Source: a virus (taxonomy: Duplodnaviria; Caudoviricetes). From it: DNA of 35,196 nucleotides. Each line of letters starts with the position of its first letter. Positions within the stretch are counted from its first letter, which is position 1. This document shows, piece by piece, positions 6,581-25,891 of the stretch. The notes under the pieces are model-generated. The model made no database searches. It worked only from the letters and a program-made list of their open reading frames with translations, and was not told the DNA's origin. The stretch is taken from the IMG/VR virus record IMGVR_UViG_3300025875_000071, positions 1 through 35,196 of that record; one strand, written 5' to 3'. The position numbers and the translations under genes were made by a program.

Positions 6581-6612
6581 ACACCGTCGGCGGGCGGGCA
6601 ACGGCGACACGG

Positions 6613-6734
6613 TGGAACTTTGTCCGTTTCGACCCACCCTGCCCCATCCCCGAACGAACATCTCTTACAAGATCAACACTGAAAGAGGATCGTTCCCGAC
6701 GGGCGTAGGGTGGTCCGAAACGGACAAAGTTCCA
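6613..6734. repeat. 122-bp inverted-arm element, copy 1 (ori-like)
   Basis: Perfect 18-bp arms tggaactttgtccgtttc (6613-6630) and gaaacggacaaagttcca (6717-6734), 86-bp spacer with an AT-richer core. Homologous to 25624-25745. Confidence 0.92.
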
Positions 6735-6840
6735 CGGACCCACGGCGGTACGCCGCCCCGCTCCGCCATGCTGTACAGTGATCAACGACGGGTAGACCGT
6801 CCGCAGTCCGCAGTTCCCGCGCCGTAGAAGCGAGGTCAGC

Positions 6841-7116
6841 ATGGCAGGTGGTTTCCGGCGTGACCGTTCCGCCGTCGCGAAGATCACCGCGCTGACCGAA
6901 GACGCACTCGACGAGATCGCAGCCGACGTCGAGACCTACGCGAAGCGCCTCGCCCCGATCGACACGGGCGAGATGCGGTCGAAGATCAGAACGGACAGCT
7001 ACCCCGGCAGGCGCGAGATCGGCGCAGCCGTCGACTACAGCGAGTTCGTCGAGCGCGGTACGTCCCGGCAGGCCGCGCAACCGTTCCTAGCTCCGGCGCT
7101 GTACCGGCACCGGTGA
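6841..7116 (+). CDS. HK97 gp10-like tail completion/neck protein
   Basis: GAGG RBS; motifs AKRLAPIDTGEMRSKI and YSEFVERGTSRQAAQPFLAPAL. Confidence 0.88.
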   Translation: MAGGFRRDRSAVAKITALTEDALDEIAADVETYAKRLAPIDTGEMRSKIRTDSYPGRREIGAAVDYSEFVERGTSRQAAQPFLAPALYRHR

Positions 7117-7139
7117 ACAACACGACGAAGGGAACTGCC

Positions 7140-7400
7140 GTGCCGAAGGTCCGCACCACCATGAACCCGCTCGACGAGATCGACGTGTCGCCGAGCGAGT
7201 ACGCCGACCTGCGCGCGTCCGGGCTGCTGCTCGACACGCGCGCCACGACCGACGACGGTCTGCTGAAGGCCGCGTCCGACGCGAGCGCCGAGCGCCCGCA
7301 CCCGGCGAAGCCGGACGGCGCGGGCGTCGACTACGTCCCGCAGGTCGCCGACCCGGCGACCCGTGACGAGATCACCGACAACGAGAACACGGAGGGCTGA
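7140..7400 (+). CDS. Hypothetical protein preceding major tail
   Basis: GAAGGG RBS and GTG at 7140, coding-like codon usage. Its last codons carry the GGAGG RBS for the major tail gene. Confidence 0.7.
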   Translation: MPKVRTTMNPLDEIDVSPSEYADLRASGLLLDTRATTDDGLLKAASDASAERPHPAKPDGAGVDYVPQVADPATRDEITDNENTEG

Positions 7401-7403
7401 CCT

Positions 7404-7961
7404 GTGGCGGTCACCACCATCAACCTGTTGCAGGGTCCGGCGCTCGCGCGGATCGCGCCCTTCGGCTCGGTCGAGCCGGTGAAGGGTCCGACCGCCGCGA
7501 CGGTCGCGCCCGACCCCGTCTGGACCGACATCGGCGGCACGACCGACGGCGTGACGGTCAACATCTCGCAGGAGTACAGCGAGATGGAGGTCGATCAGCT
7601 CGTCGACACGCCGGAGTCGCGTCTCGTGAAGCGTGGCTTCACGATCGAGACGAACATGGCGGAAGCGACGCTCGCGAACCTGAAGCTGTCGCTGAACGGC
7701 GGGACGCTCGTCGACGGCGAGTTCGAGCCTGCCGACGTCGACAGCGCGTCGCGCCCGGCGTACATGGCGCTGATGCTCGACGGTCCCGGCGAGGGCGGGC
7801 TGCCGCGCCGGTTCATCGGGCGCAAGCTGCTGTCCGTCGAAGGGACGGAGTTCGCGTACGAGAAGGAAGATCAGCAGGTGTTCACGGTGACGCTGCGCGG
7901 GCACTACGTCTCGAAGACGATCCGCCCGTTCCGCATCATCAACGCGATGCCCGCCGCCTGA
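7404..7961 (+). CDS. Major tail protein
   Basis: GGAGG RBS, 185 aa, motifs WTDIGGTTDGVTV, EMEVDQ, ETNMAEATLANL. Lies upstream of the chaperones and tape measure. Confidence 0.88.
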   Translation: MAVTTINLLQGPALARIAPFGSVEPVKGPTAATVAPDPVWTDIGGTTDGVTVNISQEYSEMEVDQLVDTPESRLVKRGFTIETNMAEATLANLKLSLNGGTLVDGEFEPADVDSASRPAYMALMLDGPGEGGLPRRFIGRKLLSVEGTEFAYEKEDQQVFTVTLRGHYVSKTIRPFRIINAMPAA

Positions 7962-7969
7962 TCCTCCCC

Positions 7970-8000
7970 GCTCCGGCTGCGCGCGATGTGCAGCCGGAGC
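7970..8000 (+). terminator. Stem-loop after major tail gene
   Basis: gctccggctgcgc...gtgcagccggagc inverted repeat 8 nt after the stop. Confidence 0.65.
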
Positions 8001-8037
8001 ACCCACAACCCACAACCCGCGAAGGGAACACAGCACA

Positions 8038-8343
8038 GTGAGCATCAGCATCAAGTCGAGCGAGACCCCGGACGTGACCGACGTCGTCGAGCTGTTCGAG
8101 CTGGACGACAAGAAGTACTTCATCCCGGCTGTGCCGCGACTGAACATCAGCCTGAAGTACCTCCGGCTCGCGCGCAAGGAAGGGCAGGCGGCGGCGATCG
8201 CGTACCTGCTCGAAGCACTGCTCGGCGAGGACGGCTTCGAGGCGCTGACCGATTACGACAAGCTCACGAAGGAGCAGTTTCAGGCAGTCGTGAAGGCCGC
8301 GCAGAAGGTGGCGCTCGGCACGCTGGAGCCTTCCAAAAGCTGA
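8038..8343 (+). CDS. Tail assembly chaperone (G)
   Basis: GAAGGG RBS, 101 aa, located between major tail and tape measure; motifs LFELDDKKYFIP and LEALLGEDGFEAL. Confidence 0.85.
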   Translation: MSISIKSSETPDVTDVVELFELDDKKYFIPAVPRLNISLKYLRLARKEGQAAAIAYLLEALLGEDGFEALTDYDKLTKEQFQAVVKAAQKVALGTLEPSKS

Positions 8344-8614
8344 CACCGCGCGGCTGAAAGAAGTCGCATGGATCGTCGATCATCTCGACGATGTCGAGTC
8401 TGACCTGTCAGTGTTCCACCGGATCGACAACATGTACGAGATGCAGCCGGTGAAGTTCTTCCGGTTCGCGCTCCGCCTCCCCGCTTACCGGGGAATCGTG
8501 CGAGCAAGGATCGAGAACGATCAGGCGAAGAAGGCGAAGAAGCACAAGGGACAGCAGGTGCGAACGAGCACCTACAACGACCCGTCAGTCTCGCAGTACT
8601 TCGAGGAAGGCTAA
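8336..8614 (+). CDS. Tail assembly chaperone extension (T), reached by frameshift from 8038
   Basis: The +1 frame is open from 8294 to 8614 and reads KADTARLKEVAWIVDHLDDVESDLSVFHRID...FFRFALRLPAYRG. It has no RBS-linked start of its own. Confidence 0.75.
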   Translation, partial: KADTARLKEVAWIVDHLDDVESDLSVFHRIDNMYEMQPVKFFRFALRLPAYRGIVRARIENDQAKKAKKHKGQQVRTSTYNDPSVSQYFEEG

Positions 8615-8620
8615 CCCGCC

Positions 8621-10831
8621 GTGGCGTTCAGGATCGGTGAAGCGTTCGTCGAAGCGACGGTCGAAGACAACACGTCCGGCGACATCGACGGCATCGGGTC
8701 GAAGCTGACGAAGTGGGCTGCCGGTCTCGGTCTCGGCGCGCTGATCGGTAAGTCGATCAGCGACGGAATGGACATCGAGACCGGCGTCGCGAACATCAGG
8801 AATCAGCTCGGTTTGACCGCCGAAGACGCGAAGACGTACGGCAACATGGCGGGCACCGTCTACCGTGGCAACTTCGGCGACTCACTCGAAGAGGTCAACG
8901 GCGTGATCGGCACCGTCGGCGAAGCGATGGGCGGTCTCGGCGCTGTCAGCAACAGCGAGATCGAGCGCATGACCGGCAACGTCCTGACAATGGCGAAGAC
9001 GTTCGACGTCGACGCGGCGATGTCCGTCGCCGCGCTCGACGCCGCCGTCTCGCAGGGACTGTCGCCGTCGCTCGAAGCCGCGACCGACGTCGCGACCCGC
9101 GTCTTTCAGGAGGGCGGGCCGAAGGCAAACGAGTTCTTGGAGATCATCAACGAGTACGCGCCGAACCTCGCGAACGCCGGTCTCTCGATGGAAGAGTTCG
9201 GCGCGATGTCGGTTCAGTATCTCGACGCGGGCGGGTACTCGATCGACCAGTTCGCCGACTCGATCCGAGAGATGACGATCCGCGTCGCCGACGGTTCCGC
9301 CGCGTCGGCTGGCGCGTTCGACTCGATCGGTCTCAACGCCGAAGAGATGACCGCCAAAATGGCGCAGGGCGGACCCGCTGCGCAGGATGCGTTCTCGCAG
9401 ATCGTCGCCGGGCTGAACGGCATCACGGACCCGGTCGCGCAGAACACGGCGGGTGCGGCGCTGTTCGGCTCGATGTGGGAAGACTCGTCCGGTGCGATCC
9501 TCGCCGGTCTCGCGCCCGTCCCCGGTTCGCTCGGCGAGGTCACCGGCGCGACGCAGACGATGTCGGACGTCGCGGGCGACACTGCCGCGTCGAAGGTCGA
9601 GTCGATGACGCGGTCGCTCGAAGGCATGGTCGCGGGCGCTGCCAACCTGCCCGGTCCGCTCGGCATGGTCGGCGCTGCTGTCGCGTCGATGGGCATCGAC
9701 ACGATCGCGGCGACGGCAGGCTCGGTCGCGATGGTCGCGCAGTTCGCGATTCAGAACGCGAGCGTCGTCGCGAACGGCGCAGCGTGGGTCGGGCGGAACA
9801 TCGCGCTCGCCGCCGGGTCGGTCGTCTCCGGCGCGGCGACCGCTGCGCAGTGGGCGCTGAACGCGGCGATGTCGGCGAACCCGATCGCGCTCGTCGTGAT
9901 CGCAATCGCGGCACTCGTCGCCGGTCTCGTGTGGTTCTTCACGCAGACGGAGATCGGTCGACAGATCATCGAAGCTGTGTGGGGCGCGATCAAGGTCGCG
10001 ATCGGCGCAACGGTCGATTGGATCACGAACACGGCGGTACCGGCAATCGTCGGCGCGTGGAACTGGATCGTCGATCGCGTCACGTGGGCAAAGAACATGA
10101 TCGTCGCTGTGTGGTCCGCGATCACTTCATGGATCGCGAACGCGGTCTCGTCGATCTACAACACGGTGACTTCGTGGATCGGGAACGTCGTCGGGTGGCT
10201 GTCGAACACGTGGAACAACGCGCGCAACATCGCGTCGTCTGTGTGGAATGGCATTGTCGGCGCGATCTCCGGCGCGATCTCGAACGTCGTCAACATCGTG
10301 CGGAACCTCCCCGGTCAGATTCTCGGCGTGTTCTCGAACGCCGGGTCGCTGCTGTGGAATGTCGGCGGTGACCTGATCCGTGGTCTGTGGAATGGCATCA
10401 GCAACGTGACCGGCTGGATTCTCGGCAAGATTCGCGGGTTCGTCGGATCGGTCACGAGCGGCATCAAGTCGTTCTTCGGGATCGGCTCGCCGTCGAAGCT
10501 GTTCGCGGACGAGGTCGGTCACTGGCTGCCCGCCGGTATCGCGGAAGGCATCGACGGCAACCTGTCCGCCGTCACCGACGCTGCCGAAGGAATGGTCGAC
10601 GCGGCGATGCCGTCCATGCCGAGCGGCATCATCGACGGCGACTCGCTGCCCGGCGAGTTCGGCGGTGCCGCCGGTCTCGTCTCGTCCGCCGGTTCGACGC
10701 ACACCGTGTCGATCGGTAACCTGACGCTTCAGGTCGAAGGCAACTTCGACTTCTCGAACCCGGTCGAGTGGAACCGGTTCATCGAAGCTGTGCGCGCCGG
10801 TCTCGTCCGCGTCGAGAGGGAGTACGCCTAA
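8621..10831 (+). CDS. Tape measure protein
   Basis: 736 aa, Ala/Gly-rich, with ANPIALVVIAIAALVAGLVWFFTQTE, periodic Trp repeats and FGIGSPSKLF. Confidence 0.95.
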   Translation: MAFRIGEAFVEATVEDNTSGDIDGIGSKLTKWAAGLGLGALIGKSISDGMDIETGVANIRNQLGLTAEDAKTYGNMAGTVYRGNFGDSLEEVNGVIGTVGEAMGGLGAVSNSEIERMTGNVLTMAKTFDVDAAMSVAALDAAVSQGLSPSLEAATDVATRVFQEGGPKANEFLEIINEYAPNLANAGLSMEEFGAMSVQYLDAGGYSIDQFADSIREMTIRVADGSAASAGAFDSIGLNAEEMTAKMAQGGPAAQDAFSQIVAGLNGITDPVAQNTAGAALFGSMWEDSSGAILAGLAPVPGSLGEVTGATQTMSDVAGDTAASKVESMTRSLEGMVAGAANLPGPLGMVGAAVASMGIDTIAATAGSVAMVAQFAIQNASVVANGAAWVGRNIALAAGSVVSGAATAAQWALNAAMSANPIALVVIAIAALVAGLVWFFTQTEIGRQIIEAVWGAIKVAIGATVDWITNTAVPAIVGAWNWIVDRVTWAKNMIVAVWSAITSWIANAVSSIYNTVTSWIGNVVGWLSNTWNNARNIASSVWNGIVGAISGAISNVVNIVRNLPGQILGVFSNAGSLLWNVGGDLIRGLWNGISNVTGWILGKIRGFVGSVTSGIKSFFGIGSPSKLFADEVGHWLPAGIAEGIDGNLSAVTDAAEGMVDAAMPSMPSGIIDGDSLPGEFGGAAGLVSSAGSTHTVSIGNLTLQVEGNFDFSNPVEWNRFIEAVRAGLVRVEREYA

Positions 10832-11997
10832 TGTCCTGGGGAACTGTGACGATCGGCGGTGTCGCCTTCCGAGAGACGTTCGACATCAGCGAAGACGGCG
10901 CGACGCTGACGCTCGAAGGTCAGGAAGCGACGCCGCCGCTCGAACGCGGCGAGGTTCTTCAGCTTCACGCGAACGTGATCGGTCTCGAAGGCCGCGTCGT
11001 GCCGATCCTGTTCACGGACAAGCCGGAGCGGAACGGCTTCTACCTGATCGACAGCGCGTCGAGCGACCTGTTCGACTGGATCGGTTACGTCGTTACGGCG
11101 ACGTGGCAGATCAAGGCGACGCGCATCGGGGCGGGTGCCGACGTCGAGTTCGAGTCGCGCGTTCCCACGATCGCGCGCTCGACGGAACTCGCCGGGGTCG
11201 CGCCGTCGTACTGGCACGCCGCGCCGGTCGGCGTCTCGTCGTACTACACGGGCAGCAGCGTGCCGAACTACTTCACCCGCGCGTCGGCTGACGGTGCCGT
11301 CCCCGTCTTCACCGGGCTGCCCGTCAACATGCCGCCGCGCTGGACGGTCGCCGCTGCCGACTTCCTGAAGGGCGCGGCGACGCTCCGGCTCGACGGTCGT
11401 GTCGCGCTCGGCGAGCAGACGCCGACCGGCTTCAGCGCGTGGGAGATCGAGAACGGCATCATCAACGTGTCGAAGTCGGACACGCCCGGAGCGATCGACG
11501 TCGAGCGATGGGACGGCGCAGCGTGGGTCAGCCTGAAGACGTACCGGTTCACCGTCAACGGTTCCGCGCTCGCGACGCAGCCGGAGTTCACCGTACTGCG
11601 CAACGACCCGGAAGAGATCACGGTCCGGCTCACCTTCCCCGGCGTGCCGGGGCGGACGCAGGTCGACATCGGGCTGCGACGCGGCGCGCGCTTCGCGACG
11701 CTGTTCGTGTCCCGCCACGCCGCCGCGACGCTCGGCGTCACGCGCACAACCGCTGAAGGTAGCACGGCGGCGACCGGCGGCATCCGGGCGACGGCGGCAG
11801 ACGCGCAGGGTGGTACGTTCGTCCTGGGCAGCTCGAAGACGGTCACGACGACCACGGCGACGGGCAGCATCGCGAAGGCAGCGCAGACGCGGCTCGACGC
11901 CTTCGTCGGGTTCACCGGTGCCGAGAGCGACTTCGCGGCGCTCGTCTCGCAGTACATCGGCACGAACGGCGACAGAACGCGGGTGGTACAGCGGTGA
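10831..11997 (+). CDS. Minor tail protein (distal tail/baseplate hub position)
   Basis: TAATG coupling with the tape measure gene, 388 aa, synteny. Confidence 0.8.
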   Translation: MSWGTVTIGGVAFRETFDISEDGATLTLEGQEATPPLERGEVLQLHANVIGLEGRVVPILFTDKPERNGFYLIDSASSDLFDWIGYVVTATWQIKATRIGAGADVEFESRVPTIARSTELAGVAPSYWHAAPVGVSSYYTGSSVPNYFTRASADGAVPVFTGLPVNMPPRWTVAAADFLKGAATLRLDGRVALGEQTPTGFSAWEIENGIINVSKSDTPGAIDVERWDGAAWVSLKTYRFTVNGSALATQPEFTVLRNDPEEITVRLTFPGVPGRTQVDIGLRRGARFATLFVSRHAAATLGVTRTTAEGSTAATGGIRATAADAQGGTFVLGSSKTVTTTTATGSIAKAAQTRLDAFVGFTGAESDFAALVSQYIGTNGDRTRVVQR

Positions 11998-14900
11998 TTA
12001 AGGATCTTCTCGGCGCGCTCGGATCGTGGGACGTCCGTCTTCGCGAGGGCACGCCCGCCGAGATCGTCGACGCGCTCGACTACTTCGGACACGTCGCCGT
12101 CGTGCGCGGTCCGGTCGACGTGCAGTCGCTCGGCGACGCGATCCTGCCCGCTGCCCGGTACGTCGGCATCCTGCGCGAGCGCGGGCGTGAGGCAGCGCCG
12201 ACGATCGGCGGCGTCGGCATGGCGGCGTGGGCCGGTGACGAAGACGAGAAGGGTCACGTCTTCGAGACGCCCGTCGTCATCACGAACAAGAACTTCGCCG
12301 ACTCGATCGCGGCTGTGCTGCCGCCGTCCGTGCAGGTCGGGTTCATCGGCGCTGTCGCTGGCACGTACACCGGCACGCATCAGTTCGAGACGCCGCGCAC
12401 CGCGCTGAACACGATCACGAGCGCCTTCGGTGCAGAATGGTACGTCGGCGGCGACGGCAAGCTGTACGCCGGGACGACCGCGCAGTTGTACGACGTCACG
12501 CCGAACGCTGTCGTCGTGCGCCGGAACGCGGGCGTCGATCTCGACCTGACCGCGCTCGGCGGTAAGTTCGACGTCGGTACCGACGTGGTCGACTACAGCA
12601 CGCGCGTGCTGCTGCTCGGTCAGACGACGGAGCAGGGCACGTTCGCCACGGGCAGCGCCGACGCGCCCGACGTCCCGTTCTACGACCTGTTCGGGAACAA
12701 GGTCAAGCGCACGCGCATGATCAGCGAGTCGGGCACCACGACCGGCAGTGTCGAAGCGCGCGCCGCGCTGAACCTGAACCGCTTCAACCGCACGCGCAAG
12801 GCGCTGAAGGTGACGGCGGAGAAGTACGAGACCGAAGGCAACTTCAAGGTCGGCGACTTCGCGTACGTGTACGACCCGGAAACGGGCATCTTCGACACGT
12901 CGCGCGAGATCGTGTTCCGTGGCGAGGTTCTGCACCCGGACGTCGTGCGCGTGTCGGGCATCAGCTACCCGATCAGCGAGGGTCACACCGTCGCGTTCCG
13001 GCGCGGCAACGGGCAGTGGATCGACCTCACGCGGTGGGTCGTGTGGGAGACGGGGACGAACGAGGTCACCGTCGGCGACCTGCCGAAGTCGCTCACCGGC
13101 GGCGGCTCGAACCCGGTCCGCGACCGCGCCGACGCCGCGCAGGTCGACCGCGTCTCGCCCGCCATGCCGACCGGCGTCAGCGTCGACACCGTCGTGTCGA
13201 GCAACGACCGGGGCGGCATTACGGCACAGGCGCTCGTGAGCTGGCAGCCGGTCACGTCGAACGAAGACGGCTCGGCGCTGACCGACCTCTCGAACTACAT
13301 CGTCGCGTACAAGCTGACGACCGCGACGCAGTGGTCGTTCGCCTACACCTTCGACCCGACGACGCGCTTCGCCGTCCTCCCCGGTCGGAACTACGACTAC
13401 CGCATCGCGGCGCAGGACATCAACGGCAACACGTCGGATTACTCGCCGACGCTCACGAACCTGTCGCGCGCTGACGACGTGCCGCCGAACGCGCCGAGCG
13501 ACCCCGTCGTGTCGTCGTACCTGGGGCAGCTCCGTATCGCGTGGGACGGCAAGGACGCGAACGGCGCAGCGATGCCCGCCGACTTCAACCGGACCGACGT
13601 CCACGTCGGCACGACGGAAGGCTTCACGCCGAGCGCCGCGACGCTCGTCTCGTCCCTCGTCGCCGCCGGGGTCGCCTACGCGACTGCGCCCTACGCCGCC
13701 GCCCGGTACGTCAAGCTCGTGCCCTACGACAACAGCGGCAACGCGGGGCAGCCGTCGGGTTCCGTCACAGGAGCAACGGCACAGGTCGGCGACGGCGACA
13801 TCGCGTCGATGTCGGTCGGCAAGCTCACCGCCGGGACGATCTTCGCCGACATCGTCAACGCCGGTCGGTTCGCGACGGCGCTCACTGGCGCACGGAGCGA
13901 GTTCAACGCGAGCGGCTTCTACCGCTTCGACGCGAACAACGTCGCACTCTTCGCCGCCGACGCGAACGGCATCCTCGTGACGGGCCGGTACCGGTCCGCG
14001 CTGTCCGGTCGCCGCGTCGAGATGGGCGCGTCGGGTCGGCTCGGTCGGATCGACTTCTTCGCGCCCGACGGCTCGAACGGTTTCGTGCAGGCGTACACCG
14101 AAGGCAACAACAGCACCGAAGCGATTCAGATCGGGATGCAGGTTCCCGGCGACACTAACTCGCTGTGGAACCGGCTCAACTTCAACAAGAGCACAAACGG
14201 CGAGTACTGCACGTTCAAGTCGGGAACACTCGAACTGTCCTTCGACGGTGGCGCGACGCAGAAGGGTTTCGACGGCACGCCCGGTGCCGGTCGCTTCGTC
14301 ATCTATCAGGCAGACGATCGGGGCACCGGCGCTTCTCGTATGCGCCTTCAGATCGACACGAAGGGTCTCGACTACAACGACGAGATCAGTCAGGACACGT
14401 TCAATCTCACGCGCGATTGGATGACGCTCCGGGGCACGCCGCAGGGCACCACGCCCCGTTTCGACTTCCGCCGTTCCGACGGCTACATGATTCACGGCAC
14501 GAGTTACAACGGCGTGTATCAGGAGTACATGCCGAACGGTCACGTGAAGTTCTTCACCGATAACGGGTGGGCGGAGATTCTTCCGCTCGGCGGCGGTTCG
14601 AGCGTCGGGTTCAAGTTCTTCAACCCTGCCGGTTACGGCGGTCTGCTGAAGTTCTTCACGGCGGGCGGCAACGACGCGCAGCGCATCGAAGCGCGGTGGG
14701 CGGGCGACGACGGCTTTTACGCGCTGTGGGCGCAGGCGTTCGTCGTGAACAGCGATGCGGCAGGCAAGGACGACATCGAGACCGTCACGCGCTCGCTGCT
14801 CGCCGACGTGCGCGGTACGCGGGTGACGTCGTACAAGCGCAAGGATCGGAAGATCAAGCGCCGGTACAAGAACGACGGCGTGACGAAGCTCGCCGACGAT

Positions 14901-15534: not shown

Positions 15535-15580
15535 GGTCGTTAGCACGGGGAATGGTCGCCTACGGAATGGGTAATGCACA

Positions 15581-16531: not shown

Positions 16532-16542
16532 AGGGAACTGTC

Positions 16543-18555: not shown

Positions 18556-18588
18556 GGTCGTGCCTCTCGTGTGAGTGTGTAGAACGGG

Positions 18589-18631
18589 CTGTGCCCCGCT
18601 CCGTGTACAGCATACACGAAGCGGGGCACAG
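18589..18631 (-). promoter_or_regulatory. 19-bp hairpin with the promoter box GTGTATGCTGTACAC at its apex
   Basis: On the minus strand: ctgtgccccgcttcgtgta-tgctg-tacacggagcggggcacag (one G-U pair). The core is identical to 19776-19792. Confidence 0.8.
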
Positions 18632-18648
18632 GTGGTGCGACCGGCAGG

Positions 18649-19038
18649 TCAGACGTCGGCGACGGTCTCGTCGTCGGTGTCCGGGGCGTTGACGTCGATC
18701 TCGGTCTGCTCGGTCTGCTCCGGCAGGTCCTCGTCGTCGAGCCGGAACGCGACCTCCTTCTCGGCGCGCACGACGTCCTTCTCGGCGTCCGCGATCAGCG
18801 TCCGCACCTTGTCGCGGCGGGCGGTCGCCTTCGCGAGCCGCTTCTTCGCCGCGTCGAGCCGCGCCTGCGCGCGCTCGGCGGGCGACCGGCGCACGCGCTC
18901 CGGCTTCTCGGTCTCGGCGACGGCGGTCTCGGTGGTGGTCTGCTCGGTCATCTCGGTGTTCTCCGGGGTCTCGGTGTTCTCGACGGCGGTCTCGTCGGCG
19001 AGGCGGGCGGCGTTGCGTGCGGCGCGCGATGCGGCCAT
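18649..19038 (-). CDS. Hypothetical coiled-coil protein
   Basis: AAGGAG RBS, very strong GC3 bias, acidic ends around a basic helical core. Confidence 0.8.
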   Translation of the reverse strand: MAASRAARNAARLADETAVENTETPENTEMTEQTTTETAVAETEKPERVRRSPAERAQARLDAAKKRLAKATARRDKVRTLIADAEKDVVRAEKEVAFRLDDEDLPEQTEQTEIDVNAPDTDDETVADV

Positions 19039-19079
19039 GTTGTCTGTCTCCTTCGTCGTGCGGCGCGTTCTGCGCCGCT

Positions 19080-19094
19080 GTGACCACCATACAC
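19080..19094 (-). promoter_or_regulatory. 15-bp promoter/operator box GTGTATGGTGGTCAC
   Basis: Identical to 6566-6580; followed by a leader hairpin and the AAGGAG RBS of 18649-19038. Confidence 0.8.
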
Positions 19095-19151
19095 GAACCG
19101 GGCGGTTCGTGCGACTTGCTGTGAAGTTTTCTCGTGCGTGTTCAGGTGGTG

Positions 19152-19200
19152 CCCGGCGGGCGCAGGGTTGAACTTCCCCTTCGCACCCACGCCCGCCGGG
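19152..19200 (-). terminator. Stem-loop downstream of the 19210-19722 gene
   Basis: cccggcgggcg / cgcccgccggg 11-bp inverted repeat 9 nt past the stop codon. Confidence 0.55.
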
Positions 19201-19209
19201 GTCTCGGTG

Positions 19210-19722
19210 TTACTCGCTCGGCTGCGCGAAGGCGTCGCGCGAGGCGAGGTACGCGCGGGCGTACTGCGCGTCCTGCTCGCTGAACTCCGCCAGCACCCAC
19301 AGGCCGCGCGGCTCGGTGCCCTTGCCGCCCTTCTTCAGCCACTCCGCGCGAGCGGCGGTCAGCTCGTCCGCCGTCTCGATCTTCAGCGCCTCGCGCGTGG
19401 CCTTCGTCGGGAGCTTGATCAGCCGTCCGAGCACCATCGGCTTGTTGCCCGGCTTCAGCGCCTTGCGACACGCGCCGACGACGGCGACCTGCGACCAGTA
19501 CATGTCGTCGTACGTCTCGTACGACCCGTCCTCGTCGAAGACGACGGTGTCGGCGGTCGCCCGCTCGGTCGTGGCACCCTGCACCTTGCTGAAGCGGTCC
19601 GGCACCGTCTCGATGACGGACGGGGTCAGCATGATGAGCTGCCCTTCGAGGTCGTCCGCCTTCGGGTACGCACCGCCCCGCGACGCGGCGGCGAAGAGGT
19701 CCATGTTCGGGGTCTCACTCAT
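19210..19722 (-). CDS. Hypothetical protein next to exonuclease (possible ssDNA-binding or recombination partner)
   Basis: GGAGGG RBS and ATG at 19722; beta-rich with DLEGQLIMLTP and MVLGRL motifs. Function inferred from position only. Confidence 0.75.
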   Translation of the reverse strand: MSETPNMDLFAAASRGGAYPKADDLEGQLIMLTPSVIETVPDRFSKVQGATTERATADTVVFDEDGSYETYDDMYWSQVAVVGACRKALKPGNKPMVLGRLIKLPTKATREALKIETADELTAARAEWLKKGGKGTEPRGLWVLAEFSEQDAQYARAYLASRDAFAQPSE

Positions 19723-19765
19723 TGTTCTGCCCTCCGGGCGTTGTCGTTGTTCGTTGTTCCCCGTG

Positions 19766-19802
19766 TGCCGGGGTACGTGTACAGCATACACGTACCCCGG
19801 CA
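19766..19802 (-). promoter_or_regulatory. Perfect 16-bp hairpin with promoter box at its apex
   Basis: tgccggggtacgtgta-cagca-tacacgtaccccggca; the minus strand reads TG-TATGCT. Confidence 0.85.
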
Positions 19803-19811
19803 GTGTGCAAG

Positions 19812-21014
19812 TCAGCCCGCCGTCGTGTCGGCCCAGATCGCGTGCAGGCGCTTGACGGCGTGCTCTTCAGCCCGGACCGTCCACGTCCGGTTGAGCTGCG
19901 CAGCGTGGCGCACAGCCCGCACTTCGGCTTCGGTGGTGCAGGCGTTGATGCGCTCGACGAGGTCGGGCAGGGCGACCGCCGCCGTCTGCGCCGGGTCGAC
20001 CCGCTCGGCGGTGACCTTGATCGGTGCCCCGCCCGCGTCCGGCGCGAGCACGCCTTCGACCTCGTCGACCTCCGCCACGGCGAGCGGCACGGCGAGCTTC
20101 CGCACCTTGCGCCAGTCGCGCACCATCTTGCACAGCGCCGCCGCCTTCCACCCTTCGGTGATGTCGAGCGCGTGCAGGGTCGCCTTCGCCTTGCCGACCG
20201 GCAGGTGAACGACGAAGGCGACGTCGGTACGGATCGCGGGCAGCTCGTCGAGCCGGTCGAGCGGGCGGTTGTAGATGTACTTCGAGTTCGCGTACAGCGC
20301 GAGCTGAATCGCGATCTCGTTCCACCCGTACGACAGGTCGCGCCCCGTCTTCAGGTCGAGCACGACGAGTTCGCCTTCGAGCAGCTTCAGCATCGTGCCG
20401 TCGGGCATCACGACGTCGGTGTCTTCCGTGACGCGCACGATCCGGTCGAACGTGCCCGCGATCTCGAACGTCGTCTCGATGACGATCCGCTCGATGTACT
20501 CCGGCACGATCTCGAAGTGGTTCGCGTCGATCAGCGCGCTGTACGCCTGAAGGTCGCGGTCCCACGGCGGCGGCACGTTCGGTGCCTCGCCCCGGTCGTG
20601 CTGCTCCGTGAAGGCGTGCAGGGCGGTGCCCAGGTTCGCCGCGTTCTTCGCCCCGGCGACCTCCTTCGCGGTCTCGGCGAAGCCGTTCAGCGCGTCGCGG
20701 TCGTCGATGTCGGTCGCGGCGACGGCGGCGTACAGGTCGGGGCGCATCGTCACGCCCTTGATCGCCATACGCTGCGCCCACTGCGACAGCGTGTACGTGT
20801 CGCTGATCGACTTCGCGAAGGTCGTCGCGCGGGTGAACGCCTTCGGCTTCTTCGCGTTCGTCTTCGTGTAGTCGGGCAGCAGGTACCGCCCGTACCGGTC
20901 GCGGGCGACCACGTTGTCGTCGTACTCCGTGCCCGCCGTGGCGACCGCGACACCGGCGCTGAACGCCGTCGTCGGCTGCGAGAACGGGTCGTTCGTGGGG
21001 TCGAGCTGTGTCAT
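19812..21014 (-). CDS. PD-(D/E)xK (RecB/Cas4-like) exonuclease
   Basis: Motifs GTALHAFTE, IAGTFDRI, VLDLKTG, QLALYA; GAGAGG RBS. Confidence 0.88.
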   Translation of the reverse strand: MTQLDPTNDPFSQPTTAFSAGVAVATAGTEYDDNVVARDRYGRYLLPDYTKTNAKKPKAFTRATTFAKSISDTYTLSQWAQRMAIKGVTMRPDLYAAVAATDIDDRDALNGFAETAKEVAGAKNAANLGTALHAFTEQHDRGEAPNVPPPWDRDLQAYSALIDANHFEIVPEYIERIVIETTFEIAGTFDRIVRVTEDTDVVMPDGTMLKLLEGELVVLDLKTGRDLSYGWNEIAIQLALYANSKYIYNRPLDRLDELPAIRTDVAFVVHLPVGKAKATLHALDITEGWKAAALCKMVRDWRKVRKLAVPLAVAEVDEVEGVLAPDAGGAPIKVTAERVDPAQTAAVALPDLVERINACTTEAEVRAVRHAAQLNRTWTVRAEEHAVKRLHAIWADTTAG

Positions 21015-21066
21015 CGTCGTGCCTCTCGTTGTGTGTTCTGTGAGTGTGTCAGGTGCGTGTGACAGT

Positions 21067-21294
21067 TCAGGCGAGCCGCCCGTCGGGCGTGTAGATCAGC
21101 TTCGTGTCGTCGACGGTGACGATCGCCGAGCACTCGATCAGCGCGTGCGCCGCGCTGTCGAGCGCCTTCGGCACCGTCTCTTCCCACTGCCCGCCCGACG
21201 AGCGCGTGACGGTCGCGCCGCCGCTGCGCAGGATGACCATCCCCGACCGCTTCAGGATGCGACCGGTGACGAGTGCCTTCTTCGTGTTTGCCAT
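21067..21294 (-). CDS. Hypothetical protein (leaderless)
   Basis: ATG at 21294 directly follows the box GTGTACGATGGTCAC (21295-21309). Confidence 0.75.
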   Translation of the reverse strand: MANTKKALVTGRILKRSGMVILRSGGATVTRSSGGQWEETVPKALDSAAHALIECSAIVTVDDTKLIYTPDGRLA

Positions 21295-21358
21295 GTGACC
21301 ATCGTACACACATCGGGCGACCTGCGCAGCAGCGACACGCCCGGCGTGTTGAGTTACG

Positions 21359-21538
21359 TCAGTGACGATTCACCGGGCGTACAACCGTGTAGGCAACGCG
21401 GTGCCGTTCGCACGCCCTAGTGACCCGCTCGACGATGCGGTCGAAGCCGAGCAGCCACACGCAGCCGCACGGGTTCGTGTGCGTCGGCTGGTCGAGCTGC
21501 CAGCGCCCCCGCGCGATGTCGAGCGCCGAGACCTTCAC
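21359..21538 (-). CDS. Small hypothetical protein (59 aa, not in ORF track)
   Basis: GTGA overlap with the upstream gene; reads MKVSALDIARGRWQLDQPTHTNPCGCVWLLGFDRIVERVTRACERHRVAYTVVRPVNRH and fills the gap in the operon. Confidence 0.55.
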   Translation of the reverse strand: MKVSALDIARGRWQLDQPTHTNPCGCVWLLGFDRIVERVTRACERHRVAYTVVRPVNRH

Positions 21539-21744
21539 GCCGCGTCAGCCTCTCGCACGTGCCGGTCGGTCGCCTCCGTGATGTCGTTCAGCAACATGCC
21601 CGGCGTGCGAGGCAGCAGCTCGACGTCGCACTCGACGCAGTACAGCGCGAGCGCCCAATCGTGCGAGCCGGTGCCCGTCTTCACCGTCGAGACGTTGAAG
21701 AAGTGATTCATGTTCTGCCCTTCGTTGCGCGAGTGCCGCCCCAT
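21535..21744 (-). CDS. Small CxxC hypothetical protein
   Basis: ATG at 21744 abuts the box GTGTACGATGAACAC. Alternative ATG at 21711 with a GAAGGG RBS. LYCVEC...H motif. Confidence 0.65.
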   Translation of the reverse strand: MGRHSRNEGQNMNHFFNVSTVKTGTGSHDWALALYCVECDVELLPRTPGMLLNDITEATDRHVREADAA

Positions 21745-21775
21745 GTGTTCATCGTACACACGGGGCGGCACCGGG

Positions 21776-23386
21776 TCACTTCGAGACGGCGCGCACGTTC
21801 TTGTCGAGCGCACGCGAGGCGAACGCGATCGACAGCAGGTCGGACAGCGCGCCCTTGCGCATCGCGGTGATCTCTTCCGGCGACGCGAGCTTCATCTTCA
21901 GCGCGAGCGCGACCTGCGCCTCGCTCGGCTTCGTCCGTCGCCACGCGCTCGACTTCGAGCTGACCGACGGGTCGATGTCCGCCGCGATCGACTCGCCGTG
22001 CGCCATTGCGTACTCGAACGTCAGCCCGGTGAGCGCCCACGTGCCGACCTGCCGGTCGAGCTTCGTGCCGACCCTCCACGTGTCGTCGGCGTCCTGCCAC
22101 AACACGACCTGACCGCCGCGCACCGGGATGAACCACACGCCCGCCCGCGTGCGAAGCCACGCGCTGTGAGAGTTCTCGAACAGCTCGACGAGCGCCGACG
22201 ACCGCTTGCCCGCGATCTTCACCTTCTCGCCGCGCTCGCGCGCTTCCTTCTCCAACCGCTCGCGCGCCTGCGCCGTGGTCTCGCCGTCCTTGACCTCCGT
22301 CTCGAAGAGGTCCGTCAGCGACCGGAGCTTGTGCCGCCCGCTGATGCCGACGACGTCGAGCACAAGCGCGTCGTCCTTGCCGGGGAACGGGCGCAGCACA
22401 CGCCCGACCATTTGCGTGTACAGCGCCGCCGACTGTGTCGGGCGCGCGATCACGGCGACTTCGGCGTGCGGTGCGTCGAAGCCTTCGGTCAGCACCATGC
22501 AGTTTGCGAGCACCTGTGTGTCGCCGTTCGCGAACCGCTTGTACATCAACTTCCGGTCTTCGCTCGGCGTCTCGCCCGTGACGACCTCCGTCGGGATGCC
22601 CGCCGCGATCAGGTCTTCGGCGAACGTCTCGGCGCTGGACACCGTCGGCGCGAAGAGGATTCCGCGCTTGCCCTTCGCGTGCTCGTTGTACGCCTCCGCG
22701 ATGACCTCGCCCGCGCCGGACGCTTCGAGCGCGTCGCCGAGCGCGCCTTCGGCGTAGTCGCCACGGCTGCGCGCGATCGTCGCGAGGTCGAAGCCGTCGA
22801 CCGTCACCTGCTGCCCGCGCACGTCGCACAGGTACCCGTGCTCGATGCCGTACATGATGTCCTTCTCGAAGGCGACCGACTGCCACACGTCGCCGAGACC
22901 CTTCCCGTCGTCGCGCGTGAGCGTCGCCGTGAAGCCGACCGTCTTCGTTGCGTCCTCGTCCTTGAACGCGCCGAAGTGCGTCAGAACTTCGATCCACGTC
23001 TTCGCGACCGCGTGGTGACACTCGTCAACGACGATCATCCCGATGCCGTACAGCGCCTCGCGCCGGGCGGGACGCGCGAGCGTCTGCACCGACGCGACGA
23101 TGACGTCGCGGTCGACCTCGTTCCGCTCCGCCTTGACGATGCCGACGGTCAGGTTCGGCGCGACGCTGCGCAGCTTCGCCTTCGCCTGCTCGGCGAGTTC
23201 TTCGCGATGCACGAGCACGAGCACGCGCGTACCCTTCGCCTGCGCTTCCGCGATCAGGTGCGAGAACACGACCGTCTTCCCGAACCCGGTCGGCAGGACG
23301 ACGGCGGTACGATCGACCGCCTGCCACTCGTTGTGCAGGGCGTCGATTGCGTCACGCTGGTAAGGGCGGAGCTTCAGACCGGCCAC
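21776..23386 (-). CDS. Superfamily 2 DExH-box DNA helicase
   Basis: Motifs LRPYQ, PTGFGKT, VDECHH, GFTAT, LTEGFD, QMVGRVLR; GAGAGG RBS and GTG at 23386. Confidence 0.93.
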   Translation of the reverse strand: MAGLKLRPYQRDAIDALHNEWQAVDRTAVVLPTGFGKTVVFSHLIAEAQAKGTRVLVLVHREELAEQAKAKLRSVAPNLTVGIVKAERNEVDRDVIVASVQTLARPARREALYGIGMIVVDECHHAVAKTWIEVLTHFGAFKDEDATKTVGFTATLTRDDGKGLGDVWQSVAFEKDIMYGIEHGYLCDVRGQQVTVDGFDLATIARSRGDYAEGALGDALEASGAGEVIAEAYNEHAKGKRGILFAPTVSSAETFAEDLIAAGIPTEVVTGETPSEDRKLMYKRFANGDTQVLANCMVLTEGFDAPHAEVAVIARPTQSAALYTQMVGRVLRPFPGKDDALVLDVVGISGRHKLRSLTDLFETEVKDGETTAQARERLEKEARERGEKVKIAGKRSSALVELFENSHSAWLRTRAGVWFIPVRGGQVVLWQDADDTWRVGTKLDRQVGTWALTGLTFEYAMAHGESIAADIDPSVSSKSSAWRRTKPSEAQVALALKMKLASPEEITAMRKGALSDLLSIAFASRALDKNVRAVSK

Positions 23387-23428
23387 TTGATCATCCTCTC
23401 GTCGGGGTCCGGCGGACCCGCTGGAACT

Positions 23429-23444
23429 AGTGTACGCTATGCAC
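23429..23444. promoter_or_regulatory. Overlapping divergent -10 boxes between helicase and primase
   Basis: Plus strand GTGTACGCTATGCAC (TACGCT at 23433-23438); minus strand TACACT (23429-23434). Confidence 0.65.
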
Positions 23445-23500
23445 AAGGACACCGCGACACAGCGACACGCACGACCCACACACTGCGGAAGGAACCCGCG

Positions 23501-25891
23501 TTGACCAGCGAAGTTGCACGACGCTTCAACGACGAGCAGGTGATCGCGCTCGCGAAGCGCGCGATCGAACCGGACGTCGCGCACGAGTTCGGCGTCATCT
23601 CGGTGACGCAGCCCGCCGACCTGCCCGCCGGGTCGCCGGAGTACTGGACGCAGGGAAACGGATACCTGCCCGGACTGCTGTTCCCGTACCGGTCCCCGGA
23701 CGGTGAGACCGTCACGTATCAGCTTCGGCCCGACACGCCGGTGCAGTACGACGGCGACACGAAGAAGTACGTCTTCCCGAAGGACGCGCCGTCGATCCTG
23801 AACGCGGCGCGCGTCGGCGACGACGACGCACCGCTGATGATCGTCGAAGGCACGTGTCAGACGATCGCCGCTGCGCAGTACGCGCCGCTCGGCTTCAGCG
23901 TCTACGGCATCGCCGGTGCGCAGTCGTGGATGAAGCGGGGCGTGCCGACGCGCGACCTCGCCGTCGTCGACGGGCGCGACGTCTTCATCGTGCTGGACGC
24001 CGACGCGGCGACGAACCTCGCCGTCTACACGGCAGGCGTTCAGCTCCGTGAAGCGTGCATCGCGCAGGGTGCCGAGAGCGTGCGCTTCGTCCGCATCCCC
24101 GGATCGAAGAACACCGGTCTCGACGACGTGCTCGCCGCCGAGACGCCGGAGCGCCGGGGCAAGTACCTGACGCGGCTCGTCGAGCTGACGCGCAACCGCC
24201 CGAAGGCGGAGAAGCCGGAGCTGCCCGCCGCGTCGAAGCCGAAGCCGAAGAAGGCGGGCGACGACGGCGACGGCTCGCCGTTCTTCGACGGCGAGAAGCT
24301 GAAGGTGCAGACGCTCGCCGAGCACGTCGTCGGCGCGCAGCCCGCTGCGCTCACGCGCGAGGACAAGGTCGCGCTGTACAAGGACGGCGTGTACCGCATC
24401 GACGGGAAGGGTTTCCTGTCGACCGTCACGAACCTGCTCGGCGAGGACTTCAGGTCGTCGCACCTGACGAACGCCGAGATGTTCGCCGTCGGTCGTCTCG
24501 CCGCCGCCGGGAACTACCTCACCGACCGCATCGACGAACCGCTGATGAACTGTCGCAACGGGATGGTCGACCTGCGCACGGGCGAGCTGATCGAGCACGA
24601 CCCGAAGTACCGCTCGTCGGTGCAGTTCCCCGTCGACTACGACCCGAACGCGACGTGCCCGACGTACGAGCAGTGGACGAAGGAACAGATCGGGGATCAG
24701 CTCGACGATCTCGAAGAGTCGGTCGCGGTGATGCTCGACCCGTCGCAGACGCCGACGAAGGCTGTCTTCCTGTTCGGTCCCTCGCGCTCCGGCAAGTCGA
24801 CGTTCCTGCGCGTCCTGATGGACGTCGCGGGCGACGAGAACACGAGCGCCGTCAGCCTGCACGCGCTCGCCGAAGATCGCTTCGCCGCTGCGAACGTGTA
24901 CGGCAAGGCGCTGAACGTGTCCGCCGACCTGAAGGCCGCGCACGTCGACGACATCTCGATGTTCAAGCTGATGACCGGCGAGGACTTGATTCAGGCGAAC
25001 CGGAAGTACGGCTCGCAGTTCGCGTTCACGAACCGGGCGCTGTTCGCCTTCAGCGCGAACGAGCTTCCCACGGTCGGCGAGTCGTCGCGGGCGTACAGCG
25101 AGCGCATCAAGCCGTTCCTGTTCCCGAACAGCTTCGCGGGGCGCGAGAACCCGGCGCTCGAAGTCGCCATTCGTGCCGAGCTGCCCGGCATCCTCGTGCG
25201 GTGGGTCAAGGCGTGGCAGCGCCGGACGGAGCGGGGCGCAGCACTGCCCACGAACAACGCCGTGCGCGAGAAGTTCGAGCAGGCGAGTGACCGCGTCCGC
25301 GCCTTCGTGGCGGAGTGCTGCGAGATCATCCCCGTGCAGACGGGGCAGGGCGGGACGAAGGGCGCGACGGAGTCGACGACGACGGAGCTGTACCGCGCGT
25401 TCTGCGACTGGACGTCTGACGAGGGTCGTACGCCTATGGCGAAGGGCAAGGTGCGCGACCGCCTGCGCAGCGTGCCCGGCGTCGTCGAAGCCACGTCGGC
25501 GGGCAAGTCGCGCGGGTGGAACGTCCGCGTGCGCCCGCGCAGCGAGTGGTCGACCGGGACGGGCGGGGACGGGCCGGACATCGGCAGTTCCGAGACCGGG
25601 CCGGATAGCAACTCACCGGAGGATGGAACTTTGTCCGTTTCAGACCACCCTACGCCCGTCGGGAACGATGTTCTTCCGAACAAGATCAGCGAAGAAGTGT
25701 CCGTCGTGGGAGTGGGTAGGGTAGGCGGAAACGGACAAAGTTCCACGATCGACGACCTGCTGACGACGCTCGCCGCCGAGCCGCCGGTCGACCTGTGCCC
25801 CGACTGCGACCGCCCGCGCGACCTCGTGCCGCCTGCGCTGTTCTGGCGCGCCTGCCGCCACTGCACGCCCGCGACCTTCGACCGGACGTGA
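23501..25891 (+). CDS. DNA primase-helicase (TOPRIM/DUF3854-like, D5-N, SF3 helicase, C-terminal Zn finger)
   Basis: AAGGA RBS and TTG start; motifs IVEG, IVLDAD, GLDD, NCRNGMVDLRTGEL, Walker A GPSRSGKST, KLMTGED, FSANELP, CPDC...CRHC. Confidence 0.9.
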   Translation: MTSEVARRFNDEQVIALAKRAIEPDVAHEFGVISVTQPADLPAGSPEYWTQGNGYLPGLLFPYRSPDGETVTYQLRPDTPVQYDGDTKKYVFPKDAPSILNAARVGDDDAPLMIVEGTCQTIAAAQYAPLGFSVYGIAGAQSWMKRGVPTRDLAVVDGRDVFIVLDADAATNLAVYTAGVQLREACIAQGAESVRFVRIPGSKNTGLDDVLAAETPERRGKYLTRLVELTRNRPKAEKPELPAASKPKPKKAGDDGDGSPFFDGEKLKVQTLAEHVVGAQPAALTREDKVALYKDGVYRIDGKGFLSTVTNLLGEDFRSSHLTNAEMFAVGRLAAAGNYLTDRIDEPLMNCRNGMVDLRTGELIEHDPKYRSSVQFPVDYDPNATCPTYEQWTKEQIGDQLDDLEESVAVMLDPSQTPTKAVFLFGPSRSGKSTFLRVLMDVAGDENTSAVSLHALAEDRFAAANVYGKALNVSADLKAAHVDDISMFKLMTGEDLIQANRKYGSQFAFTNRALFAFSANELPTVGESSRAYSERIKPFLFPNSFAGRENPALEVAIRAELPGILVRWVKAWQRRTERGAALPTNNAVREKFEQASDRVRAFVAECCEIIPVQTGQGGTKGATESTTTELYRAFCDWTSDEGRTPMAKGKVRDRLRSVPGVVEATSAGKSRGWNVRVRPRSEWSTGTGGDGPDIGSSETGPDSNSPEDGTLSVSDHPTPVGNDVLPNKISEEVSVVGVGRVGGNGQSSTIDDLLTTLAAEPPVDLCPDCDRPRDLVPPALFWRACRHCTPATFDRT
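25624..25745. repeat. 122-bp inverted-arm element, copy 2 (ori-like, in frame within primase-helicase)
   Basis: Same perfect 18-bp arms (25624-25641 and 25728-25745) and 86-bp spacer. 25624-25669 matches the reverse complement of 6689-6734 at 45 of 46 nt. Confidence 0.92.

What the first reader, a model, noticed from the sequence alone, without database searches (positions are those of the whole stretch)
6613..25745. Two 122-bp inverted-arm elements on roughly opposite sides of the circle: duplicated origin-like sites
Seen: 6613-6734 and 25624-25745 are both exactly 122 bp. Both have the same perfect 18-bp inverted arms (tggaactttgtccgtttc / gaaacggacaaagttcca) and an 86-bp spacer. One 46-nt side matches at 45 of 46 nt in inverted orientation, while the other side has drifted without changing length. 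They are about 19.0 kb and 16.1 kb apart on the 35,069-bp circle. Copy 2 is read in frame inside the primase-SF3 helicase gene, between the helicase and a C-terminal Zn finger. Copy 1 is intergenic in the tail-connector operon. Known: phage origins often lie within or beside the initiator gene as inverted protein-binding repeats around an AT-richer core. Inference: conserved arms with fixed spacing indicate a protein-bound site for two head-to-head complexes, probably the primase-helicase, so the phage may have two origins or an origin plus a decoy/terminus. Recombination between the inverted homologies could also flip the 19-kb segment.
Basis: partly seen in the sequence, partly recalled or inferred. 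Interest (0 to 1): 0.85.

Follow-up and report, generated by a model that had tools for sequence, protein, structure and literature searches.

The report
Duplicated replication origin in actinobacterial phage
The two 122-bp inverted-repeat elements are real and are likely two working copies of the site where this phage's own primase-helicase loads to start DNA replication, and cultured Streptomyces phages with a related enzyme carry three spaced copies, so the idea of several origins in one small phage genome can be tested in the lab.

Summary
Observation confirmed. Four identical 18-nt arms occur only at these two places, and a relative about 85% identical keeps both copies with all arms unchanged. 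Copy 2 lies in the stretch of the primase-SF3 helicase gene that encodes a disordered linker. A similar 100-181-bp inverted repeat with lineage-specific arms sits there in 29 of 30 assessable related phages (19 strongly). The cores are among the easiest DNA to melt. This is the SaPI/P4 type of origin (inferred, not assayed). Extra copies occur in 6 of those 30 relatives. Cluster-BG Streptomyces phages lack the in-gene copy but carry three intergenic copies, one beside the head-tail connector genes as here. Arms change between lineages but stay matched within a genome. Best reading: a second loading site that probably also fires; main rival: an SPP1 oriR-like fork block. Corrections: length is not fixed, the asymmetric cores are direct, the 45/46 match is a recent conversion, and no inversion or skew signal was found. 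This scan has noted duplicated primase-helicase origins on other DNA many times, including a Streptomyces phage group. I found no paper describing these copies.

The parts
6613..6734 (.). Copy 1: intergenic origin-like imperfect palindrome between the DUF6011 gene and the neck gene
6613..6630 (+). Copy 1 left outer arm (18 nt; predicted primase-helicase binding site)
   Evidence: identical in G001
6717..6734 (-). Copy 1 right outer arm
6636..6640 (+). Inner ACCCT motif shared across the family; mirrored at 6707-6711 on the minus strand; candidate priming site (inferred)
6657..6686 (.). Copy 1 core: weakest 30-bp duplex of the whole genome; holds CAAGATCA at 6668-6675
6689..6734 (-). 46-nt block matching 25624-25669 at 45 of 46; probable recent conversion from copy 2
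25624..25745 (.). Copy 2: origin-like imperfect palindrome inside the primase-helicase gene, encoding a disordered linker
25624..25641 (+). Copy 2 left outer arm
25728..25745 (-). Copy 2 right outer arm
25668..25697 (.). Copy 2 core: seventh-weakest 30-bp duplex; CAAGATCA at 25681-25688; inner ACCCT motifs at 25647-25651 (+) and 25718-25722 (-)
23501..25891 (+). Primase-SF3 helicase, 796 aa: DUF3854 (just under cut-off), D5_N, DUF5906; closest solved structure SaPI5 PriRep5
25379..25531 (+). Helix-helix-hairpin module after the helicase; probable winged-helix origin-binding domain (weak support)
   Evidence: separate fold search inconclusive
25796..25864 (+). C-terminal four-cysteine module (probable zinc finger) downstream of copy 2
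26133..28016 (+). Family A DNA polymerase
19812..21014 (-). Exonuclease (phrog_466); could serve recombination-dependent restart and copy conversion
28185..28817 (+). Endonuclease VII-like ORF (longest open frame; true start probably later)
5544..6005 (+). Tail terminator gene
6041..6565 (-). DUF6011 gene beside copy 1; absent from G001 at this site
6841..7116 (+). HK97 gp10-like neck / tail-completion gene

Best explanation
The two elements are conserved inverted repeats around an easily melted core, and they are likely two copies of the replication origin on which the phage's own primase-helicase loads, with the copy among the tail genes probably firing as a second start site. Shown: the anatomy (outer arms, inner ACCCT motif, weak core); the place of copy 2 in the helicase gene's disordered linker across the family; extra copies in three separate parts of the primase tree; arms matched within a genome but different between lineages. 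Inferred by analogy with SaPI Rep and P4 alpha: the C-terminal winged-helix domains bind the outer arms, two hexamers load on either side of the core and melt it. Inferred, weaker: the helicase moves 3'-5' on the leading-strand template, and the primase domain primes at the inner CCCT motif on each strand, giving outward leading strands that the phage PolA extends. Inferred, weakest: spaced copies shorten the distance each fork travels, and recombination at forks or breaks near a copy overwrites half-elements from one copy to another, keeping the arms matched to the protein.
For: Arms identical in all 8 positions across window and G001. In-gene inverted repeat in 29 of 30 assessable non-BG relatives, 19 with score 15 or more, and at the primase 3' end in 5 of 9 scanned loci from bacterial genomes. 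Only sequence hit among solved structures and top fold hit is SaPI5 primase-helicase 7ola/7om0, whose origin is oppositely pointing repeats around an AT-rich core just after the gene (PMC9371898, passages). Core of copy 1 is the weakest duplex of the genome, core of copy 2 the seventh; 38 of 49 elements in relatives fall in the weakest 5% of tiles. CCCT in 24 of 46 inner half-arms against 9.7 expected, its complement in 5 (motif chosen after looking). Cluster-BG clade lacks the in-gene copy yet has three intergenic copies in 4 of 4 named genomes scanned directly and six blast places in 10 of 11 and 2 of 2 further records; if the element is the origin, intergenic copies must be able to serve. 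Largest arc 36-41% of the genome in three-copy phages, 54% here. Halves of different copies match at 64 of 65 (Xkcd426, G028) and 63 of 65 (G032) while a copy's own two halves match at 33-50 of 65.
Against: No binding or replication assay exists. A second copy is dispensable in the family: 10 of 13 complete or circular non-BG relatives show none, including genomes of 71-93 kb, which weakens a fork-distance argument. No strand skew fits any origin model (p 0.73, 0.28, 0.15). The winged-helix call is weak (Pfam Pox_D5 E 0.11 here, 0.014 in one homologue; single-domain model pLDDT 54 and its fold search uninformative). The window's arms lack the tandem 9-nt repeat seen in many relatives. Even spacing rests on few independent lineages and on where intergenic room exists; G024 and G029 split 35/65 and 32/68. 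The melting test is biased: elements are longer than the 100-bp tiles and intergenic DNA tends to be AT-richer.
Confidence: 0.5

Rival explanations
1. SPP1 oriR-like switch: copy 2 is the origin; protein bound at copy 1 stalls incoming forks, and break-and-restart recombination converts circle replication into concatemers for packaging.
For: SPP1 has oriL inside its initiator gene and oriR in an intergenic segment with moron genes among the late genes, proposed as a fork block (PMC6316719, PMC3485210, passages). Copy 1 has the same kind of setting. The window encodes an exonuclease and an endonuclease VII-like protein. Breaks at the site would explain half-element conversion. Copy 1 lies near the point opposite copy 2.
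Against: Copy 1 keeps the full anatomy, including the weakest core of the genome, which a block would not need. BG phages have three equivalent copies and no in-gene one. The oriR block is itself a proposed model in those papers. Not exclusive with the best explanation.
Confidence: 0.2
2. P4 crr-like partner or titration site: copy 1 binds the enzyme and is needed for, or limits, firing at copy 2 but does not initiate.
For: The enzyme is of the P4 alpha / D5 group (PMC4889955 passages). That P4 needs a distant crr site bound by alpha is recalled; one search shows only that crr exists as a separate element. G024 has a lone perfect arm 120 bp before its primase gene, which fits regulatory binding.
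Against: Most complete relatives have one copy only (10 of 13). Copy 1 has the melting core and inner motifs of a full origin.
Confidence: 0.12
3. Transcription control site: the element couples late or divergent promoters to replication, or is an operator for another protein.
For: Copy 1 lies between a leftward promoter-like motif at 6566-6580 and a related rightward one near 6772; BG copy C lies upstream of the primase gene between divergent genes.
Against: The family-wide copy lies inside a coding region. The stand-alone copy has a different neighbour in L154 (scaffold-like gene by resemblance). Intergenic gaps hold promoters anyway.
Confidence: 0.08
4. Extruded hairpin or cruciform recognised by shape, as proposed for the pRN1 origin, or an RNA stem-loop.
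For: Both strands of both copies fold into long stems (DNA -32 to -41 kcal/mol; no shuffle control). pRN1 needs an about 100-nt stem-loop after its primase-SF3 helicase gene (PMC4234260 sections 14 and 18 part 1). Some relatives have near-perfect 39-62-bp arms.
Against: Inner halves match their own partner (14-18 of 28) no better than halves of the other copy (12-19 of 28, leaving out the converted block), so sequence rather than pairing is kept. Outer arms are invariant in sequence. No Rfam match.
Confidence: 0.05
5. Sites for programmed inversion of the 19-kb segment.
For: 46 nt of near-identical inverted homology. One contig of a relative in run X3 gave an opposite-strand joint 6893/25624 with a 35-nt side at 85% likeness.
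Against: That joint is explained by a relative's copy 1 resembling copy 2, and it vanished at 97% likeness. 9 of 9 genome pairs are colinear. No site-specific recombinase among the ORFs scanned (not every ORF). Reading the primase frame into inverted copy 1 meets a stop after 22 codons, so a flip would cut off the zinc finger.
Confidence: 0.03
6. Miniature transposable element (MITE).
For: Short element with terminal inverted repeats; CGG flanks copy 1 on both sides.
Against: The CGG duplication is absent at copy 2 and at G001 copy 1. The element is an old fixed part of the primase gene across the family. No transposase seen.
Confidence: 0.02

Closest known systems
SaPI origin with Rep / PriRep5 self-loading SF3 helicase (PMC9371898; PDB 7OLA, 7OM0)
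   Same: Primase-SF3 helicase with a C-terminal DNA-binding domain; oppositely pointing repeats flanking a weak core at the 3' end of the gene; two-hexamer loading model.
   Different: SaPI origins have 6-12 short iterons in about 300 bp after the gene. Here one 18-nt arm per side in 122 bp lies inside the gene, with a zinc finger beyond, a phage PolA, and an extra distant copy.
Bacillus phage SPP1 oriL / oriR (PMC6316719, PMC3485210)
   Same: Two similar origins about 12-13 kb apart, one inside the initiator gene, one intergenic among late genes beside moron genes; exonuclease and resolvase encoded.
   Different: SPP1 uses direct repeats, a separate initiator gp38, a loader and a DnaB-type helicase, and replicates unidirectionally. 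Here the site is two-fold symmetric, the initiator is an SF3 primase-helicase, and relatives have one, two or three copies.
Satellite phage P4 alpha protein with ori and crr
   Same: Toprim-type primase fused to a D5-group SF3 helicase with winged-helix origin binding (PMC4889955, PMC4234260 passages); two separated cis sites.
   Different: crr is (recalled, not read here) a pair of direct repeats that does not initiate; here both sites have the same palindromic anatomy.
Plasmid pRN1 and phage BIP-1 stem-loop origins (PMC4234260)
   Same: About 100-nt palindromic element at the 3' end of a primase-SF3 helicase gene; works when moved elsewhere.
   Different: pRN1 conserves structure not sequence and has an archaeo-eukaryotic primase; here arm sequence is invariant within a lineage, and there are several copies.

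Membership tests
SaPI/P4-type primase-helicase origin | Cognate D5-group SF3 primase-helicase encoded | tested here: met
   Pfam D5_N and DUF5906; 7ola only sequence hit and top fold hit
SaPI/P4-type primase-helicase origin | C-terminal winged-helix origin-binding domain | tested here: inconclusive
   Fitting topology in the full model; match to 7ola runs to residue 741 of 797; Pox_D5 only E 0.11; single-domain search uninformative
SaPI/P4-type primase-helicase origin | Oppositely oriented repeats flanking an easily melted core | tested here: met
SaPI/P4-type primase-helicase origin | At least two short iterons on each side | tested here: inconclusive
   Many relatives show a tandem 9-nt repeat in each arm; the window's arms do not
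SaPI/P4-type primase-helicase origin | Located at the 3' end of the rep gene | tested here: met
   Copy 2 within the last 270 bp of the gene; 29 of 30 non-BG relatives likewise
SaPI/P4-type primase-helicase origin | Specific binding and cis-dependent replication | not testable with these tools
   needs EMSA and a plasmid assay
SPP1 oriL/oriR pair | Two similar sites, one in the initiator gene, one among late genes | tested here: met
   compared
SPP1 oriL/oriR pair | Direct repeats, gp38-type initiator and DnaB-type helicase | tested here: not met
   Inverted arms and an SF3 primase-helicase instead
SPP1 oriL/oriR pair | Second site stalls forks | not testable with these tools
   needs 2D gels or nascent-strand mapping
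pRN1-type stem-loop origin | Structure conserved with sequence free (compensatory pairing) | tested here: not met
   Arms invariant; inner halves no closer to own partner than to the other copy
MITE | Target-site duplication | tested here: not met
   CGG at window copy 1 only; absent at the other three sites
Invertible segment | Both orientations occur | tested here: inconclusive
   None seen in 9 genome pairs or in contigs at 97% likeness; raw reads not available

The most novel reading that the evidence does not exclude
A family of actinobacterial phages replicates small circular genomes from two or three equivalent, spaced, self-loading helicase origins. Each primes only outward leading strands at a family-wide CCCT motif, the copies are kept matched to the enzyme by half-element conversion, and in cluster BG the intergenic copies have replaced the original in-gene origin.
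Probability: 0.3. Interest if true: 0.75.

Novelty: new variant of a known kind. Interest (0 to 1): 0.5.

Why it matters
Phages are usually drawn with one origin, and for the few known second sites (SPP1 oriR, P4 crr) the role is a proposed model or differs from initiation. This family varies naturally between one, two and three copies with the same enzyme type. The three-copy members include cultured, virulent Streptomyces griseus phages (TP1604, Xkcd426, Geonosis), so deleting copies one at a time could show whether extra sites fire, block or titrate. The gaps that hold the TP1604 copies carry no annotated feature. The site plus the enzyme might also give a compact replicon for actinomycete vectors.

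Tried and rejected
Strand skew at fourfold-degenerate sites under three origin models: no signal; the raw cumulative skew follows gene strand. Rfam: 0 matches. Window element against 50,697 phage records: no match. Plasmid search gave only distant primases, not followed. Single-sequence model of the putative winged-helix domain was poor and its fold search gave nothing above Z 4.1. The careful tree did not finish; only the quick tree was used. Arm type follows primase clade, which kinship alone explains, so it is not counted as co-evolution. No RNA holder listed. The X3 joint 6893/25624 was rejected as inversion evidence. Copy 2 was not among the contig pieces displayed (tables cut), so it rests on G001. 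In-frame fusion of primase to DUF6011 after a flip: blocked by a stop. Metagenome pattern scan gave 10 loci: 2 the window's own, 2 duplicates of G001, 2 family members (L154, L157), 4 without primase or convincing window similarity (L151, L152, L155, L158), set aside. Three distant phages (OscarSo, BAjuniper, phiC31) show no such repeat at the primase gene at score 15 or more. G020 was dropped (record ends inside the gene); loci L044-L046 and L172 were not followed. In one search some halves of G023, Geonosis and Mischief19 were out of register by 1-2 bases; those rows are not used. The P4 primer pppApG idea could not be sourced: one search gives pppApG for E. coli primase only.
Full report
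Setting. The window is a circular 35,069-bp tailed phage genome of about 68% G+C with capsid, portal, terminase, tail, amidase, SF2 helicase, PolA and a primase-SF3 helicase. Its nearest cultured primase relatives are Streptomyces cluster-BG phages at 42-47% identity; 8 of 10 loci from bacterial genomes carry actinobacterial names. An actinobacterial host is inferred.

The observation. Both elements are as described. The four 18-nt arms are identical and unique to five mismatches. Each element is an imperfect palindrome of about 50 bp per side. They are the two strongest inverted repeats of their size in the genome. Contigs from two studies bridge copy 1. Relative G001, 81-87% identical over the flanking blocks, has both copies at the same sites with all arms unchanged; its copy 1 is 124 bp.

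Copy 2 is a family trait. C-termini of the 120 best homologues often show peptide pairs that betray a palindrome in the DNA (output partly cut, read by eye). I fetched all 37 virus records with a close primase. One ends inside the gene and six form the BG-like clade, leaving 30. Of these, 29 show an inverted repeat of 100-181 bp at the primase 3' end: 19 score 15 or more, 3 score 12-14, and 7 are weaker and recognised by eye from clade-type arms; G035 has none there. In the window the element encodes a linker predicted to be disordered, so the constraint is likely on the DNA. The only solved structure found by sequence, and the top fold match, is the SaPI5 primase-helicase. SaPI origins lie just after the rep gene as oppositely pointing repeats around an AT-rich centre, bound by the C-terminal winged-helix domain, with two hexamers proposed (PMC9371898, passages). 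The winged-helix domain here is plausible but only weakly supported.

Anatomy. Read inward, each half has a lineage-specific outer arm (often a tandem 9-nt repeat, not in the window), then a shared inner motif, then a variable core. CCCT occurs in 24 of 46 inner halves from 23 elements, against 9.7 in shuffles and 5 for its complement (chosen after looking, two halves per element, some elements kin). The core of copy 1 is the weakest duplex in the window and that of copy 2 ranks seventh. In relatives 38 of 49 elements are in the weakest 5% of tiles, a test biased in their favour. SaPI Reps move 3'-5' on the leading-strand template. A primer made opposite CCCT on each strand would point outward as a leading strand; this step is my inference.

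Extra copies. Six of the 30 non-BG relatives have a second copy: G001, G010, G011, G017, G018, G024. Among the 13 that are circular or at least 90% complete, 3 have one and 10 do not. In G010, G011, G017 and G018 it lies near a neck gene, confirmed by family scan for G011, as in the window. L154 is a stand-alone copy with the window's arms in another setting. The six BG-like records lack the in-gene repeat. Named BG genomes TP1604, Xkcd426, Mischief19 and Geonosis each have three copies, 4 of 4 scanned. In TP1604 they lie in unannotated gaps before the portal genes, after the head-to-tail connector gene 19, and upstream of the primase. Ten of 11 records hit by the TP1604 element, and 2 of 2 phiSAJS1 records, show six blast places, as three palindromes would. 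Mischief19 has wholly different arms, matched across its three copies. G027 and G029 show two copies and fragment G026 none in full. On the quick tree the multi-copy phages fall in three separate groups with single-copy phages between them.

Copies exchange sequence. Window copy 1's right half matches copy 2's left half at 27 of 28 inner positions; G001 copy 2's left half is identical to the window's, while G001 copy 1's right half matches at 16 of 28. The 45/46 block is therefore a recent overwrite, not a remnant. The asymmetric core reads the same way in both copies. In Xkcd426, G028 and G032, halves of different copies match at 63-64 of 65. Yet 9 of 9 genome pairs are colinear, so exchange does not leave fixed inversions.

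What the extra copy does. Three readings remain. It may fire: it has the full anatomy, BG phages manage without the in-gene copy, and copies are spaced fairly evenly (largest arc 54% here, 36-41% in three-copy phages). It may block forks like SPP1 oriR, which sits among late genes beside moron genes while oriL lies in the initiator gene (PMC6316719, PMC3485210, passages); the window encodes an exonuclease and an endonuclease VII-like protein. Or it may be a partner or titration site like P4 crr (details recalled). Against any essential role, most complete relatives have one copy, and skew gave no signal. I put about 0.8 on both copies being functional sites for the primase-helicase, and 0.5 on both firing.

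Literature. Nine searches were run (listings and abstract openings). The cluster-BG announcement PMC5511901 (whole text) does not mention repeats. PMC11536984 on Geonosis has 0 occurrences of 'repeat' in its main text (passages). PMC4234260 (abstract, section 14, first part of section 18) describes a single stem-loop origin in pRN1 and predicts one in BIP-1. PMC4889955 (passages) places such helicases in the P4 alpha / D5 group. PMC9942202 and PMC2532735 (passages) added little. The library lacks most subscription journals and no supplements were opened, so absence from print is not established.

Earlier notes of this scan. Duplicated primase-helicase origins were noted in many other genomes, including a Streptomyces phage group (e1-6427628); nothing matched this sequence. 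These are unchecked AI notes and are not counted as support. They gave me the SaPI, pRN1 and SPP1 papers, which I then read in part.

Verdict. Real, conserved, and most likely a duplicated SaPI/P4-type origin: a new variant of a known kind. Interest 0.5: the origin type and second sites have precedent, but the one-two-three copy series with cultured members makes the role of extra phage origins directly testable.

Noticed in passing
window 6566-6580 (-), 19080-19094 (-), 21295-21309 (-), 21745-21759 (-), 25930-25944 (+), 28794-28808 (+): A 15-nt motif occurs six times (0.21 expected), mostly just before a start codon; probably a phage promoter or operator for leaderless genes. A related site lies near 6772, 40 bp after copy 1, and is conserved in G001.
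   Followed up: partly
L154:595-719: Stand-alone copy with the window's arms between a leftward acidic, scaffold-like ORF and small rightward ORFs; the extra copy can sit elsewhere within one arm family.
   Followed up: partly
G024: 1451-1570, 19840-19856, 7684, 53746: Lone perfect arm about 120 bp before the primase gene, further lone arms beside the extra copy, and a second, different inverted-repeat family at 7684 and 53746.
   Followed up: no
G010 54229, G011 41044, G017 27294, G018 17975; G010 52565-52790, G011 39377-39600, G034 52383: Two further inverted-repeat families of about 97-200 bp shared in this clade, unrelated to the origin arms.
   Followed up: no
P0030, P0033, P0064 and others: Many homologues are primase-helicase-PolA fusions of about 1300-1380 aa; the palindrome-coded linker lies between helicase and polymerase.
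   Followed up: partly
G035 67592; L176:8452-8580: Provirus lacking the in-gene repeat has a 129-bp inverted repeat about 1.4 kb upstream of the primase match; possibly a relocated origin.
   Followed up: no
G004, G005, G006 and BG element cores: Cores rich in alternating purine-pyrimidine runs rather than A+T; possible alternative way to distort the duplex.
   Followed up: no
window 6041-6661 (-): The open frame of the DUF6011 gene extends back into copy 1 and reads like the primase linker peptide; one stop codon separates it from the arm's frame. Probably a by-product of the palindrome.
   Followed up: yes
window 34286-34993: Scaffold gene with a long Asp/Glu-rich repeat tract.
   Followed up: no
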